Positions 10,279-13,775 of a stretch of DNA of 64,000 nucleotides are shown piece after piece. The position numbers and the translations under genes were made by a program. The notes beneath the pieces were generated by a model. It did not search any database and had not been told where the DNA came from. It worked only from the letters and a program-made list of their open reading frames with translations. The first letter of the stretch is position 1; every line of letters starts with the position of its first letter. Source of the stretch: Phenylobacterium sp. (lineage in GTDB: Bacteria; Pseudomonadota; Alphaproteobacteria; Caulobacterales; Caulobacteraceae); NCBI RefSeq assembly GCF_965229015.1, contig NZ_CBDDIM010000001.1:622198-686197 (forward strand), given 5' to 3'.

Positions 10279-10354
10279 TGGTGCCGGATACAGGACTCGA
10301 ACCCGTGACCTTCGGTTTACAAAACCGCTGCTCTACCAGCTGAGCTAATCCGGC
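10279..10354 (-). tRNA. tRNA-Thr(TGT)
   Basis: Reverse complement GCCGGATTAGCTCAGCTGGTAGAGCAGCGGTTTTGTAAACCG...GGTTCGAGTCCTGTATCCGGCACCA; 76 nt with encoded CCA. Confidence 0.96.
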
Positions 10355-10449
10355 GTCTGTGGTGGCCCCGGGGCTGGGGCCGGGTCGCCATTCCTTAGCT
10401 GCTTCGCGGCGAGGGGGGCAACCGCTTCCGCCTGGGACGGGAACGCGCT

Positions 10450-10463
10450 TTGACGTGGGTCAA
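10450..10463. promoter_or_regulatory. FNR/FixK-type palindrome upstream of SRPBCC gene
   Basis: TTGAC-GTGG-GTCAA, followed by a possible -10 TAGGGT at 10486-10491 and a GGAGG RBS. Confidence 0.55.
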
Positions 10464-10510
10464 CGAGCCTCGCCGCGCGGCCCCCTAGGGTCGGGATCAG
10501 GAGGTGACCC

Positions 10511-11023
10511 ATGTCAGACGCTCAACTTGGCCCCGCGACCTTCTTCCGCGAGGGCCCGATGGTGGTGGCGACCCTGAGCCGCGAGATCGCGGCCGACCCG
10601 CAAGCCGTCTGGACCGCCCTAACCGCGCCTGAACTGCTCCCGCAGTGGCTGGCGCCCGGAACGATCGAGTTGCGGCCCGGCGGCGCGGTGCGGCTCGACT
10701 TCGGCGACAGCGGCGTGGTGGTCGACTCGACGGTCAGCGCCGTGGAGCCCGGCCGCCTGCTGGAATACTCCTGGAGCGGCCCCGGCGAGCCTCAGCGGCC
10801 CGTCCGCTGGGAGATCGCCCCGCGCGGGGCGGCCGTCGACCTGACCCTGACCCTGAAGCTGCCCCCCGACGAGGACGCCGGGCGCTCGGCCGCCGGCTGG
10901 GCGGCGCACCTGGAGATGCTGGCCTGCGCCCTGGCCGGGGTTCCCATCAAGTTCCCCTTCGAGGCCTTCAAGGCCACCCGCGACGCCTACCGCGATCTGG
11001 TGGGCGTGGAGGTCGCCTACTAG
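10511..11023 (+). CDS. SRPBCC/AHSA1 (START-like) family protein
   Basis: REIAADPQAVWTALTAPELLPQW, GRLLEYSW and GWAAHLEML. Confidence 0.88.
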   Translation: MSDAQLGPATFFREGPMVVATLSREIAADPQAVWTALTAPELLPQWLAPGTIELRPGGAVRLDFGDSGVVVDSTVSAVEPGRLLEYSWSGPGEPQRPVRWEIAPRGAAVDLTLTLKLPPDEDAGRSAAGWAAHLEMLACALAGVPIKFPFEAFKATRDAYRDLVGVEVAY

Positions 11024-11039
11024 CCGCGGCCGGCGCCGA

Positions 11040-11939
11040 TCAGGTTCGACGCAGGATGAAGGTGTCCTGCGGCAGGCTGTTGGTGTCGAACAGCACCAGC
11101 TCCAGGGGCAGGAGGTTGTCCTCGATGATCTTCCGGAGCGGTTCGGGGCCGAAATAGGCCTCGCCATAGAGCGGGCCCAGACCCGTGTCGTGCCAGATGA
11201 ACTCCCCGGCCTCGTACCGCCGCAGGGCGTCGGCGGTGTCGCCGATCTTGCTCAGCACGAAGGTGTAAAACCAGTGGACCTCCTCGCCGGCCTCGGCGCG
11301 CGCCTTCTGGTTGGCGAGTTCCGCCAGGAATCGGCCGCCCCAGGTGGTGAAGGCCGCGAACCCCCCCGGTCTCAGGACCTCGGCGGTCTCGCGCAGCCAC
11401 AGGGCCGCCGAGTGCGGCGACAGGTGGGAGAAGACCGAATAGCCGATCACGAGGTCGAAGCTGTCGCGCGGGATCCGCCGATTGGGCAGATATTCCCCCG
11501 TCAGGATGCAGGCGTAGGGATTCAGGCCGCGGGCGATCTTGGAGAAGAGGGTCGACGGTTCGAACCCGTAGATGTTCGCCAGATCATAGTGACGCATGTA
11601 GGGGCGCATCATCCGCCCCCAGCCGCACCCGAAGTCGAGCAGGCGGGCGTCGGGATCGAGGCGGAGGGATCCCTGCAGATTGCCCTTCACGAACAGGTAG
11701 AACATGAAGGCCTCGTGGATCGCGTCCACCCCTGAACTCCCGTGCACGCGGGACTGCAGGTCGGGGTCCGGGAAGCCCGGGAACACGACGCCCTCGATGG
11801 TTTGATCGGTGACCGAGGCCCGGAGCGTCGCCAGCCACTGGCCGTCCGTCAGGTGGCCGAAGGTGTCGCGGAAGATGTTGGCCGAGCGGAGCCGTTCCTC
11901 GTCATAGTTGATGGGCGGGACATAGACTTCGGCGACCAT
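11040..11939 (-). CDS. Class I SAM-dependent methyltransferase
   Basis: LLDFGCGWGR, FDLVIGYSVFSHL and LRPGG. Start placed at ATG 11939 after GGAG. Confidence 0.88.
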   Translation of the reverse strand: MVAEVYVPPINYDEERLRSANIFRDTFGHLTDGQWLATLRASVTDQTIEGVVFPGFPDPDLQSRVHGSSGVDAIHEAFMFYLFVKGNLQGSLRLDPDARLLDFGCGWGRMMRPYMRHYDLANIYGFEPSTLFSKIARGLNPYACILTGEYLPNRRIPRDSFDLVIGYSVFSHLSPHSAALWLRETAEVLRPGGFAAFTTWGGRFLAELANQKARAEAGEEVHWFYTFVLSKIGDTADALRRYEAGEFIWHDTGLGPLYGEAYFGPEPLRKIIEDNLLPLELVLFDTNSLPQDTFILRRT

Positions 11940-11961
11940 GCGCGACTCCATAGCTTGGGCG

Positions 11962-11990
11962 GTTATGTCGGCCTGAGCGGCGGGCGGCAA
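11962..11990 (-). promoter_or_regulatory. Sigma70-type promoter for the methyltransferase
   Basis: TTGCCG-N17-CATAAC on the minus strand. Confidence 0.45.
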
Positions 11991-12164
11991 GCGCGTGGGA
12001 CGCTGAAGACGCGCAAGGAAAAGGCGCTCCCGGCCAAGCCGGAAGCGCCATCACCTGTCCCCCGACAGGTCGACCGTCGCTCACTGAGCGCCAGTCTCCA
12101 AAAACCTGACCGGGTTATGCCCAAGACTCGCGCCGACCGCAAACCGGCCTGGTGTCGCAGGGGG

Positions 12165-12248
12165 AAAGAGAAAGCCCCGGCGCTCCTGTGAAGGAGCCCG
12201 GGGCCAGGGCGACGGCTCAAGTCGGGGGGGCGATTTGCCGTCGCCCCC
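12165..12248 (-). ncRNA. Putative sRNA, suhB/alpha-r8 (GsrN/MmgR-like)
   Basis: Minus strand: stem GGGCGACGGC/GCCGTCGCCC with loop AAATCGCCCCCCCGACTTGA, then terminator GCCCCGG-GCTCCTTCACAGGAGC-GCCGGGGC-TTTCTCTTT. Confidence 0.6.
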
Positions 12249-12252
12249 TATC

Positions 12253-12277
12253 AATTCGCGGGCCGGGAGAGTGTTCC
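12253..12277 (-). promoter_or_regulatory. ECF (SigT/EcfG-like) promoter for the putative sRNA
   Basis: GGAAC-N16-AATT on the minus strand. The -35 is exact; the -10 matches CGTT only partly. It ends about 5 nt before the first stem. Confidence 0.4.
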
Positions 12278-12365
12278 CAAGAAAAATGCGCTTCATGCGA
12301 ATTTCCGGGTCGCGCCGGCCAAGCGCCCTGTGATCCTCTGGCGGAAGTATCCAGGGGAGAGCGCC

Positions 12366-13775
12366 ATGAAGTTCGAGGATTATCGCAGCCACGACGCCGT
12401 GGGCCTGGCGAGCCTGGTGGCCAAGTGCGAGGTCTCCGCCGCCGAATTGCTGGAGACCGCGGTCGCCCGCATGGGCCAGGTCAATCCGGCCCTCAACGCC
12501 GTGACCCTGGACCTGGCCGACTGGGGCCGGAAGGAAGCCGCCAAGCCGCCCAGCGGGCCCCTGGCCGGCGTGCCCTTCCTGCTCAAGGACCTGGGGGCGA
12601 CCCTGGCCGGGACGGTGACCTCCTCGGGCTCGGCCCTGCTGAAGGACAATGTGGCCGCCGCCGACAGCGCGCTCACCACCGCCTACCGCCAGGCGGGCCT
12701 GGTGATCTTCGGCAAGACCAACACCCCCGAATACGGCCTGATGCCCATCACGGAGAGCACCTTCCTGGGCCCCTGCCGCAACCCCTGGGACGTCTCGCGC
12801 ACGCCCGGCGGCTCCTCGGGCGGGGCGGCCTCGGCGGTGGCGGCCGGCATCGTGCCGGCGGCCCACGCCAGCGACGGCGGCGGCTCCATCCGCACACCCG
12901 CCTCGGCCTGCGGCCTGTTCGGCTTGAAGCCCTCTCGCGGCCGGGTCTCCTTCTCGCCCCTGGGGGAGGGCTGGGGCGGGGCCTCGATCCAGCACGCCGT
13001 CACCCGCTCGGTCCGCGACTCGGCCGTCCTGCTGGACATCGCCTGTCGGCCGCAGCCCGGTGACCCCTACTATCTGGACGCGCCGGCCACCCCCTACGCC
13101 CAGGAGGTGGGCCGCGCGCCCGGCAAGCTGCGGATCGGCTTCACCACCGCCGCTCTGGCCTCCGACGCCCTGGACCCTGAATGCGTCCAGGCGGTGCTGG
13201 ACGCCGCCCGGCTCTGCGAGAGCCTGGGCCACACGGTGGAGGAGGTGACCGTGCCGGGAAACCTGGCGGCCATGCAGCAGGGCGCCGGCGACGTGATCGC
13301 CGCCGGCGTCGCGGCCACCTTCGAGGCGGAGGCCGAGCGGCGCGGCCGCCCGGTCAGCGAGGACGAGGTGGAGATGCTCACCTGGGGCATGTACCGGCGC
13401 GGGACCGGGGTCAGCGGGGCCACCTATGTCCGCGGCCTGGCGGCCATCCACGCCTACGGCCGGGCGGTGGCGGGCCTGTTTTCCACCTACGATGTCCTGC
13501 TGCTCTCGACCCTGGGCAGCCCGGCGATCCCCATCGGCCACCTGACGGAGGACCTGCGGGCCTTCACCGAGCGGCTCTTCAAGTTCATGCCCAACACCCA
13601 GGCCTTCAACAACACCGGCCAGCCGGCCATGACCGTGCCCCTGGCCTGGTCGGCGGGGGGCCTGCCCATCGGCCTGCAGTTCGTGGGCCGCATGGCCGAT
13701 GAGGCGACCCTGTTCCGCCTCGCCGGGCAACTGGAGACGGCCAAGCCCTGGTTCGACCGCGTCGCCCCGATCTAG
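12366..13775 (+). CDS. Amidase signature family protein
   Basis: GVPFLLKDL, GKTNTPE, TPGGSSGG and HASDGGGSIRTPAS. Start at ATG 12366 after GGGGAG. Confidence 0.93.
   Translation: MKFEDYRSHDAVGLASLVAKCEVSAAELLETAVARMGQVNPALNAVTLDLADWGRKEAAKPPSGPLAGVPFLLKDLGATLAGTVTSSGSALLKDNVAAADSALTTAYRQAGLVIFGKTNTPEYGLMPITESTFLGPCRNPWDVSRTPGGSSGGAASAVAAGIVPAAHASDGGGSIRTPASACGLFGLKPSRGRVSFSPLGEGWGGASIQHAVTRSVRDSAVLLDIACRPQPGDPYYLDAPATPYAQEVGRAPGKLRIGFTTAALASDALDPECVQAVLDAARLCESLGHTVEEVTVPGNLAAMQQGAGDVIAAGVAATFEAEAERRGRPVSEDEVEMLTWGMYRRGTGVSGATYVRGLAAIHAYGRAVAGLFSTYDVLLLSTLGSPAIPIGHLTEDLRAFTERLFKFMPNTQAFNNTGQPAMTVPLAWSAGGLPIGLQFVGRMADEATLFRLAGQLETAKPWFDRVAPI

What the first reader, a model, noticed from the sequence alone, without database searches (positions are those of the whole stretch)
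12165..12277. Unannotated sRNA with a C-rich loop, terminator and ECF-type promoter (GsrN/MmgR-like)
Seen on the minus strand: GGAAC-N16-AATT, then a 10-bp stem presenting AAATCGCCCCCCCGACTTGA, then a strong GC hairpin and a U-rich tail (about 84 nt in total). An alternative GGGGCGA/TCGCCCC hairpin could sequester the C-run. Knowledge: suhB/alpha-r8 family sRNAs (MmgR; GsrN in Caulobacter, SigT-dependent) carry a C-rich ...GACUU loop that pairs with G-rich mRNA leaders. Inference: a general-stress sRNA, possibly with a two-state loop.
Basis: partly seen in the sequence, partly recalled or inferred. Interest (0 to 1): 0.7.

Follow-up and report, generated by a model that had tools for sequence, protein, structure and literature searches.

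The report
Second GsrN-type stress small RNA
This intergenic stretch encodes a roughly 80-base regulatory RNA that is a second, simplified copy of GsrN, the known general-stress small RNA of Caulobacter and its relatives, so it is a real gene but of an already known kind.

Summary
On the minus strand, 12277-12165 reads GGAAC-N16-AATT, then an 11-bp stem with a 20-nt loop (AAAUCGCCCCCCCGACUUGA), then a GC-rich terminator.

It is not a suhB/alpha-r8 (MmgR) RNA: RF00519 gives no hit even at E<=10. It is a paralogue of GsrN. The published C. crescentus gsrN sequence has the same stem position and the same loop core, CGCCCCCC(C)GACUUGA.

The genome is a Phenylobacterium. It also carries the canonical GsrN (Rfam CC3552, RF01529, 80.8 bits) on its second replicon, 1.4 kb from phyR-nepR-sigT. 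The window copy lacks the nested hairpin and the 3' domain, and does not reach RF01529.

Two-hairpin copies of this kind occur in 17 of 121 sampled Phenylobacterium genomes, always together with the canonical gene. They also occur in the family's two other hit-rich genera (taken from genome size to be Brevundimonas and Caulobacter), mostly behind GGAAC-N16-CGTT.

Support for a functional gene:
- 20 of 24 pairs show compensatory changes.
- Among seven close species, the promoter boxes, hairpin and terminator arms are 90-100% conserved, against 54-71% for the spacers and the terminator loop.

Expression, sigma-factor dependence and targets are untested. Only anecdotal contigs hint at transcript ends.

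A separate conserved sRNA-like gene lies immediately downstream.

The parts
12273..12289 (-). T-rich upstream tract plus -35 box (GCATTTTTCTTGGGAAC; GGAAC = 12277-12273)
   Evidence: 97% mean pairwise identity among 7 close species, while the neighbouring spacer is 66%. GGAAC stands at the same distance in most homologues across the three hit-rich genera. An A/T tract also lies upstream of the C. crescentus gsrN -35 box.
12257..12272 (-). 16-nt promoter spacer
   Evidence: Fixed length with free sequence: 66% identity, 4 of 16 columns invariant.
12253..12256 (-). -10-like element AATT, where the EcfG consensus has CGTT
   Evidence: AATT or GATT in the close clade and TATT in G056. Most homologues have CGTT, a few AGTT, TGTT, GGTT or CATT. 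TT is the same in every copy where a box is found.
12244..12250 (-). Predicted transcription start zone
   Evidence: Lies 3-9 nt after the -10-like element; in C. crescentus the mapped 5' end is 10 nt after CGTT (probe numbering). Contig ends fall at 12244 (X26), 12250 (X27) and 12235 (X25), and none covers the promoter. This contig evidence is anecdotal.
12206..12247 (-). 5' hairpin: 11-bp stem (12247-12237 with 12216-12206) closing a 20-nt loop (12236-12217)
   Evidence: Fold. 98% identity among 7 species. 10 of 11 stem pairs show compensatory changes across 20 homologues.
12217..12232 (-). Seed CGCCCCCCCGACTTGA in the loop
   Evidence: Same core as the GsrN 5' loop (ACGCCCCCCGACUUGA). CGCCCCCCCGAC is nearly unchanged across 20 homologues. 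The C run is predicted unpaired with P = 0.82-0.94 in all homologues tested.
12165..12205 (-). Intrinsic terminator hairpin (12205-12173) and tail UUUCUCUUU
   Evidence: Arms 100% conserved, loop 54%. 10 of 13 pairs show compensatory changes. The U tract is only moderate, which is probably why the simple terminator scan did not list it.
12015..12142 (-). Neighbouring, separate sRNA-like gene ('unit 2'). Promoter-like TTGCGG (12142-12137)-N17-CATAAC (12119-12114); hairpin CCUGUC-GGGG-GACAGG (12069-12054); strong terminator 12049-12023 plus UUUUCC
   Evidence: Boxes conserved and spacer free. Model R3 finds strong matches (at least 52 bits) in 18 of 121 sampled Phenylobacterium genomes, 7 of them lacking the GsrN-like gene upstream. 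No Rfam match. Listed as context, not as part of the GsrN-like gene.

Best explanation
The element is a functional small-RNA gene of the GsrN family, here called GsrN2. It is a paralogue of the canonical gsrN that the same Phenylobacterium genome carries next to its general-stress locus.

Proposed mechanism:
1. An ECF-type promoter (T-rich tract, GGAAC, 16 nt, AATT) starts transcription at about 12250-12244. [quoted passage not shown]
2. The terminator ends the RNA at about 12169-12165, giving a transcript of roughly 76-86 nt.
3. The 11-bp 5' stem holds the loop AAAUCGCCCCCCCGACUUGA open.
4. The C run plus GACUUGA pairs with G-rich sites of the (U)CAAGUCGGGG type in mRNA leaders or coding regions, changing their translation or stability. 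This is how C. crescentus GsrN acts on katG mRNA.

The seed is the same as that of the canonical copy, so the two should share targets. GsrN2 lacks the second (3') pairing region and has a weaker-looking -10, so it probably adds dose or a different induction threshold rather than a new regulon.

Shown here: homology, structure, purifying selection, and co-occurrence with the canonical gene. Inferred: expression, sigma-factor dependence, Hfq dependence, and targets.
For: Homology:
- The published C. crescentus gsrN locus reads GGAAC-N16-CGTT, then stem GCGAAGGCGGC/GCCGCCTTCGC enclosing GACGCCCCCCGACTTGA.
- GsrN targets recovered in that study read UCAAGUCGGGG, GUCGGGGG and similar. These are the complement of the window loop.

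Paralogy:
- The canonical gsrN is at C2:393407-393519 (RF01529, 80.8 bits).
- It lies 1.4 kb from phyR within the phyK-sigT-nepR/phyR locus.
- RF01529 is found in 96 of 121 Phenylobacterium genomes over its cut-off, one copy each.
- The two-hairpin type is found in 17 of 121, and all 17 also have RF01529.

Structure:
- 94% of cells are paired and 20 of 24 pairs have changes on both sides. No shuffle of 500 reaches this; slid controls give 38-50%.

Selection footprint among 7 species:
- -35 region 97%, -10/start 90%, hairpin 98%, terminator arms 100%.
- Spacer 66%, terminator loop 54%, flanks about 70%.

Promoter:
- 27 of the 31 GsrN-like copies in the 27 two-hairpin loci checked have GGAAC-N16-N[AG]TT at the right place, mostly CGTT.

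Loop accessibility: P(unpaired) about 0.87.

Transcript ends (weak):
- An X26 contig holds exactly 12244-12169 at 100% identity between foreign flanks.
- Contigs from X25 (metatranscriptome) and X27 start at 12235 and 12250. None includes the promoter.
Against: - There is no direct expression data for this strain. The RNA runs carrying the species label hold no reads from this genome.
- The -10 reads AATT, not CGTT, so EcfG dependence is less certain than for most homologues.
- The gene is on a different replicon from the GSR locus.
- It does not reach Rfam RF01529.
- The only experimentally known GsrN target site, in the katG leader, is not conserved in this genome: -11.6 kcal/mol with scattered pairs, against -16.1 for the Caulobacter control. 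No concrete target can therefore be named.
- A seed-complement scan gave 218 sites, mostly inside genes, and was uninformative.
- The U tract is interrupted, and contigs in two runs cross the terminator.
Confidence: 0.75

Rival explanations
1. The RNA is real but is not under the general-stress sigma factor. Another ECF sigma factor (for example a SigU-like paralogue), or the housekeeping sigma, reads the GGAAC...AATT region, so the RNA answers a different signal from the canonical GsrN.
For: The -10 is AATT, GATT or TATT throughout this Phenylobacterium subgroup instead of CGTT. All promoters inside the genome's own GSR locus read CGTT. The AAC motif in a -35 box is common to many ECF sigma factors (general knowledge). 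The gene is far from the GSR locus.
Against: The promoter is clearly homologous to gsrN promoters that carry the full consensus: same T/A tract, same GGAAC, same 16-nt spacing, same TT. The genome's own canonical gsrN already deviates (AGTT). From memory, the reported S. meliloti RpoE2 consensus keeps only GGAAC-N18-19-TT.
Confidence: 0.2
2. The two-hairpin element is only the 5' module of a longer transcript of about 235 nt. That transcript runs through the first, leaky terminator and ends at the strong terminator at 12023, so the C-loop hairpin and the G-loop hairpin of 'unit 2' sit in one RNA.
For: The first terminator has an interrupted U tract. In G056, G077 and G121 the equivalent hairpin has no U tract at all (CUCCCUCAUGCC). 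Contigs in X25 (RNA) and X27 run from about 12235-12250 across the terminator into unit 2. The two units stay in tandem in 13 genomes.
Against: Unit 2 has its own conserved -35/-10-like boxes with a free 17-nt spacer. It exists without the GsrN-like gene in 7 genomes. The X26 contig ends exactly in the first U tract. Two-hairpin homologues in the other genera have good U tracts and no unit 2. The contigs may derive from DNA.
Confidence: 0.15
3. It is a decaying, unexpressed duplicate of gsrN (a pseudogene), or merely a terminator-like palindrome.
For: Non-consensus -10. Loss of the nested hairpin and the 3' domain relative to the canonical gene. No RNA data.
Against: The RNA body is invariant in 7 species whose neighbouring non-functional positions differ by 30-45%. 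Deeper homologues keep the stems through compensatory changes and keep the loop sequence. The same two-hairpin architecture, with perfect promoters, is widespread in two further genera.
Confidence: 0.05
4. It is a member of the suhB / alpha-r8 (MmgR) family.
For: Both are alphaproteobacterial sRNAs with C-rich loops.
Against: No RF00519 match at E<=10 in 11900-12450. On the canonical paralogue, RF00519 scores only 12.2 bits on the terminator. The loop motif differs: from memory, alpha-r8 loops are of the CCUCCUCCC anti-Shine-Dalgarno type.
Confidence: 0.02

Closest known systems
GsrN of Caulobacter crescentus (CCNA_R0081; Rfam CC3552, RF01529; Tien et al. 2018, PMC5869019)
   Same: ECF-type promoter layout: A/T tract, GGAAC, 16 nt, xxTT. 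A 5' stem of about 11 bp at the transcript start. Loop core CGCCCCCC(C)GACUUGA. An intrinsic terminator. Occurrence in Caulobacteraceae.
   Different: No nested hairpin inside the loop. No 3' domain with the second pairing region: about 80 nt against 106 nt. The terminator follows the 5' stem directly. The -10 is AATT, not CGTT. Seven C's rather than six. It does not reach the RF01529 score. It coexists with a canonical copy and lies on the other replicon from the GSR locus. Processing to a 5' isoform is probably unnecessary, because the RNA is already little more than that isoform plus a terminator.
   Same: Same two-hairpin architecture and the same CGCCCCCCCGAC loop core. Model R2 recovers them, and the stems covary with the window copy.
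   Different: Most have the full GGAAC-N16-CGTT. The loop 3' part reads GACUGAA or GACCUAG. Some are tandemly duplicated. None has unit 2 downstream. I could not establish whether the BLASTn 'homologues' of Tien et al. include them.
MmgR / suhB / alpha-r8 (RF00519)
   Same: Alphaproteobacterial trans-acting sRNA with C-rich single-stranded regions.
   Different: No sequence or structure match. Different loop motif and different regulation.
sX13 of Xanthomonas (RF02232)
   Same: Hairpins presenting C-rich loops that, from memory, pair with G-rich mRNA motifs. It is the best weak Rfam score covering the element (20.9 bits, E = 0.095).
   Different: Far below the gathering score of 50. Three hairpins with 4-5 C loops. 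A gammaproteobacterial family. This is a functional analogy only.

Membership tests
GsrN (CC3552, RF01529) | Score at or above the Rfam gathering threshold (50 bits) for RF01529 | tested here: not met
   No RF01529 match in 11900-12450 at E<=10. The only match in the genome is the copy on C2. Other two-hairpin copies also miss the model.
GsrN (CC3552, RF01529) | 5' stem-loop exposing a tract of six or more cytosines followed by GACUUGA, the experimentally defined targeting loop | tested here: met
   Loop AAAUCGCCCCCCCGACUUGA against published GACGCCCCCCGACUUGA. Predicted unpaired with P = 0.87.
GsrN (CC3552, RF01529) | SigT/EcfG-dependent promoter GGAAC-N16-CGTT | tested here: inconclusive
   GGAAC and the 16-nt spacing are present and conserved, but the -10 is AATT. 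Dependence itself can only be shown experimentally.
GsrN (CC3552, RF01529) | Position next to ecfG/nepR/phyR (typical, though C. crescentus is an exception) | tested here: not met
   The GSR locus is at C2:388-392 kb. The window copy is at C1:634 kb. The canonical copy does meet this.
GsrN (CC3552, RF01529) | 3' domain with a second exposed pairing region; endonucleolytic processing to a 51-54-nt 5' isoform; Hfq effect | tested here: not met
   The 3' domain is absent, because the terminator follows the 5' stem directly. Processing and Hfq binding cannot be tested with these tools.
GsrN (CC3552, RF01529) | Pairing with the katG leader | tested here: not met
   The katG leader of this genome has no GUCGGGG site. 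The best duplex is -11.6 kcal/mol with scattered pairs, against -16.1 for the C. crescentus control.
suhB / alpha-r8 / MmgR (RF00519) | Match to the RF00519 covariance model | tested here: not met
   No match at E<=10.

The most novel reading that the evidence does not exclude
Caulobacteraceae carry a second, unrecognised GsrN lineage: a minimal two-hairpin form outside the Rfam model, present in at least three genera and always beside the canonical gene wherever I checked. It would give the general stress response two sRNAs with one seed but different promoters and half-lives. In this Phenylobacterium clade the minimal copy may also be tied to the adjacent G-loop sRNA (unit 2). The unit 2 sequence UGUCGGGGG-ACA-GGUGAU can pair with 14 nt of the GsrN2 loop (-25.4 kcal/mol), so unit 2 could act as a sponge or partner.
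Probability: 0.12. Interest if true: 0.55.

Novelty: new member of a known kind. Interest (0 to 1): 0.35.

Why it matters
GsrN is the best-studied post-transcriptional arm of the alphaproteobacterial general stress response. It has been treated as one gene per genome.

This locus shows that some Caulobacteraceae keep a second, stripped-down copy with the same targeting loop, and that the current Rfam model misses it. That has three consequences:
- Genome annotation undercounts these genes.
- Single gsrN deletions in such species may be masked by the paralogue.
- The minimal copy is a natural experiment on which parts of GsrN are needed. It matches the published result that the first 58 nt of GsrN suffice for peroxide protection.

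It does not reveal a new mechanism.

Tried and rejected
- **Rfam at gathering thresholds** over the whole window found only 4 tRNAs. At E<=10 around the locus there was no suhB and no CC3552, only sub-threshold sX13, BjrC80 and Atu_C7.
- **BLAST-type DNA search** in 41 relatives found one true relative. It also found one chance match inside what looks like a tsaB-like coding region (L003), which I discarded.
- **RNA-seq runs** carrying the species label (X31-33, X22, X34) hold no reads from this genome, even over 16 kb at 80% likeness. They give no expression evidence.
- **Runs found with a relative's locus** gave contigs that extend past the promoter, so they are not clean sRNA evidence.
- **katG leader pairing** is not conserved.
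- **Genome-wide seed-complement scan**: 218 sites of at least 10 nt, mostly in coding DNA, not discriminating.
- **Unit 2 as the C. crescentus sRNA CCNA_R0016**, which co-purifies with GsrN: I saw no resemblance on comparing the R0016 sequence from the paper's supplement with unit 2.
- **Unit 2 as a conserved pairing partner**: the duplex is in the 1% tail only in the window clade and at background (p = 0.11-0.26) in four diverged pairs.
- **Two-state loop**: the sequestering hairpin is not conserved.
- **Sigma-70 promoter scan**: no site.

Full report
**Observation.** On the minus strand the window reads as follows.
- Promoter-like region: GCATTTTTCTTGGGAAC (12289-12273), a 16-nt spacer, AATT (12256-12253), then GATAG.
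- 5' hairpin: stem arm GGGGCGACGGC (12247-12237), loop AAATCGCCCCCCCGACTTGA (12236-12217), arm GCCGTCGCCCT (12216-12206).
- Terminator: a GC-rich hairpin follows directly (12205-12173), then TTTCTCTTT (to 12165).

The 96-nt stretch folds at -53.3 kcal/mol (z = -3.9).

The element lies in a 375-bp gap. An amidase gene runs the other way on one side (Pfam PF01425). On the other side are a second terminator, a SAM-methyltransferase gene and a tRNA. The description and coordinates of the finding are correct.

**What it is not.** Rfam finds nothing here at gathering thresholds. With permissive settings (E<=10) on 11900-12450, neither suhB/MmgR (RF00519) nor any Caulobacter family appears. Only sub-threshold sX13 (20.9 bits), BjrC80 and Atu_C7 alignments show up. 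It was also aimed at the wrong family.

**What it is.** Supplementary file 1 of Tien et al. 2018 (PMC5869019) gives the C. crescentus gsrN locus:
- GGGAAC-N16-CGTT.
- A stem GCGAAGGCGGC/GCCGCCTTCGC, which encloses GACGCCCCCCGACTTGA plus a small nested hairpin.
- A 3' domain and a terminator.

The window element has the same promoter layout, a stem of the same length at the same place, and the same loop core, CGCCCCCC(C)GACUUGA. [quoted passage not shown] It lists target sites such as UCAAGUCGGGGC and GUCGGGGGUG. These are the complement of the window loop.

**A second copy, not the orthologue.** A motif scan of the whole genome (two contigs of 3.21 and 1.53 Mb, 69% GC) found a second locus at C2:393.4 kb with the full canonical form.
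- That locus matches Rfam CC3552 (RF01529) at 80.8 bits. RF01529 is therefore the Rfam family for GsrN.
- It sits 1.4 kb from phyR. The neighbouring genes are phyK, an ECF sigma factor, nepR and phyR by Pfam. Nine GGAAC-N16/17-CGTT sites lie within 10 kb.
- This matches the typical position reported in the paper.

The window element is thus a paralogue, which I call GsrN2. It lies on the other replicon.

The genus is Phenylobacterium. One genus-mate contig is identical to NCBI record NZ_DASXNL010000084.1, labelled Phenylobacterium sp..

**Distribution.**
- RF01529 is over its cut-off in 96 of 121 sampled Phenylobacterium genomes, one copy each.
- A covariance model built from the window-type copies (R2) finds 17 of the same 121 genomes. 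All 17 also have RF01529.
- Across the family, R2 hits 45 of 401 genomes in 7 of 27 genera.
- The hits in the 3-Mb genus and the 4-5-Mb genus are the same two-hairpin design with CGCCCCCCCGAC in the loop. I take these genera to be Brevundimonas and Caulobacter, from genome size and from the named canonical hits. Nearly all these hits carry a perfect GGAAC-N16-CGTT, and a few are tandem duplicates.
- None of these two-hairpin copies reaches RF01529.

**Evidence that it is a functional RNA gene.** On an alignment of 20 homologues:
- 94% of cells form standard pairs, against 38-50% when partners are slid.
- 20 of 24 pairs show changes on both sides.
- None of 500 shuffles reaches the observed values.

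Among seven closely related species, all with the gene next to the amidase, conservation follows function:

| Segment | Mean pairwise identity |
|---|---|
| T-tract plus -35 | 97% |
| Promoter spacer | 66% |
| -10 to start | 90% |
| 5' hairpin | 98% |
| Terminator arms | 100% |
| Terminator loop | 54% |
| Flanks | about 70% |

The C run is predicted unpaired (P = 0.82-0.94) in every homologue tested.

**Promoter.** The box match alone is weak evidence. By composition I estimate about 220 GGAAC-N16-NNTT sites per genome by chance. The full GGAAC-N16/17-CGTT occurs 59 times against about 53 expected.

The stronger argument is homology of the promoter. In the 27 two-hairpin loci checked, 27 of the 31 GsrN-like copies have GGAAC, a 16-nt spacer and N[AG]TT at the right distance from the C run. 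The C. crescentus promoter is experimentally SigT-dependent.

The window clade and its nearest relatives read AATT, GATT or TATT rather than CGTT. I therefore rate EcfG dependence as likely but unproven.

**Expression.**
- Runs labelled with the species name contain no reads from this genome.
- One run of unknown type (X26) holds a 212-nt contig in which exactly 12244-12169 appears at 100% identity between unrelated AT-rich sequence. That span is the predicted RNA from its start zone to the U tract. Nothing else from 14 kb around is present in that run.
- Contigs from a sediment metatranscriptome (X25) and another run (X27) come from close relatives. They begin at 12235 and 12250 and cross the terminator into the next unit. 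None covers the promoter.
- This fits the predicted start and a leaky terminator, but depth is 2.5-4.4 and a DNA origin cannot be excluded.

**Mechanism and targets.** By homology, the RNA should pair through its C-rich loop with G-rich sites.
- The one validated Caulobacter site, in the katG leader, is not conserved here.
- A simple seed-complement scan is not discriminating in this GC-rich genome.
- GsrN2 shares 17 nt of seed with the canonical copy, so overlapping targets are expected.
- It lacks the 3' pairing region. It resembles the 58-nt 5' fragment that the paper showed to be sufficient for peroxide protection.

**The 'two-state loop'.** The GGGGGCGA/UCGCCCCC hairpin exists at -16.5 kcal/mol and would form first on the nascent chain. 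The complete stem is 8 kcal/mol better. In other homologues the equivalent hairpin is -6.7 or weaker. It is not a conserved feature.

**The neighbour.** Directly downstream (12142-12015) lies a second conserved unit:
- TTGCGG-N17-CATAAC, with a freely varying spacer.
- A hairpin with a GGGG loop.
- A strong terminator.

A model of this unit (R3) finds matches at E<=0.01 in 34 of 121 Phenylobacterium genomes. 18 of them score at least 52 bits, and 7 of those have no GsrN2 upstream. It is therefore an independent, undescribed sRNA-like gene.

In the window clade its loop region can pair with 14 nt of the GsrN2 loop (-25.4 kcal/mol, the 1% tail of random windows). This complementarity is at background level in four diverged pairs. 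I treat a functional link as unlikely.

**Verdict.** This is a real, conserved small-RNA gene. It is a GsrN paralogue of minimal architecture, missed by annotation and by Rfam. The kind of regulator and its likely mechanism are already known.

Noticed in passing
window 12015-12142 (minus): 'Unit 2' is a conserved sRNA-like gene of about 95 nt. It has its own sigma-70-like boxes (TTGCGG-N17-CATAAC), a hairpin with a GGGG loop (12069-12054) and a strong terminator (12049-12023). Strong matches (at least 52 bits) occur in 18 of 121 sampled Phenylobacterium genomes, 7 of them without the GsrN-like gene upstream. It has no Rfam match.
   Followed up: partly
window 10282-11990 (minus): A segment of about 1.6 kb sits between unit 2 and a tRNA gene (10354-10282) that I read as tRNA-Thr(UGU). 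It carries a SAM-methyltransferase gene (11990-11040) and an overlapping 182-aa ORF with no Pfam match. In relatives G007, G096 and G111 the tRNA follows unit 2 directly, so this looks like a small tRNA-adjacent insertion.
   Followed up: no
own genome C2:633,624-633,680 (outside the window): CCCCCGACUAGAAACCGACUUUAGUCGGGGGUUUAGUCGGGGG: a hairpin-forming element that holds a GsrN-seed-like CCCCCGACUA and two copies of its complement, UAGUCGGGGG.
   Followed up: no
own genome C1:1,146,874-1,146,885 (minus; outside the window): The leader of what looks like rpoZ (reading MARVTVEDCIE) carries CCCCCGACUUGAGG just before the start codon. This is the same 13 nt as the GsrN seed, in sense rather than complementary. 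About 0.4 such matches are expected by chance per genome.
   Followed up: no
L170, L177, L178 (the 3-Mb genus, probably Brevundimonas: genomes G349, G371, G268): Two-hairpin GsrN-like genes occur as tandem pairs about 165 nt apart, each with its own GGAAC-N16-C[GA]TT promoter.
   Followed up: partly
run X26 laid on window 12169-12244: A 212-nt contig contains exactly the predicted RNA body at 100% identity between unrelated AT-rich flanks. No other part of the surrounding 14 kb is in that run. It may be an RNA-level chimera that marks the true transcript ends.
   Followed up: partly
L026 (G104), L020 (G055), L010 (G095): Further Phenylobacterium sRNA-like loci with C-rich loops and similar terminators. 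L026 has a perfect GGAAC-N16-CGTT. L010 keeps the two-hairpin GsrN-like body but has no GGAAC within 45 nt upstream.
   Followed up: no
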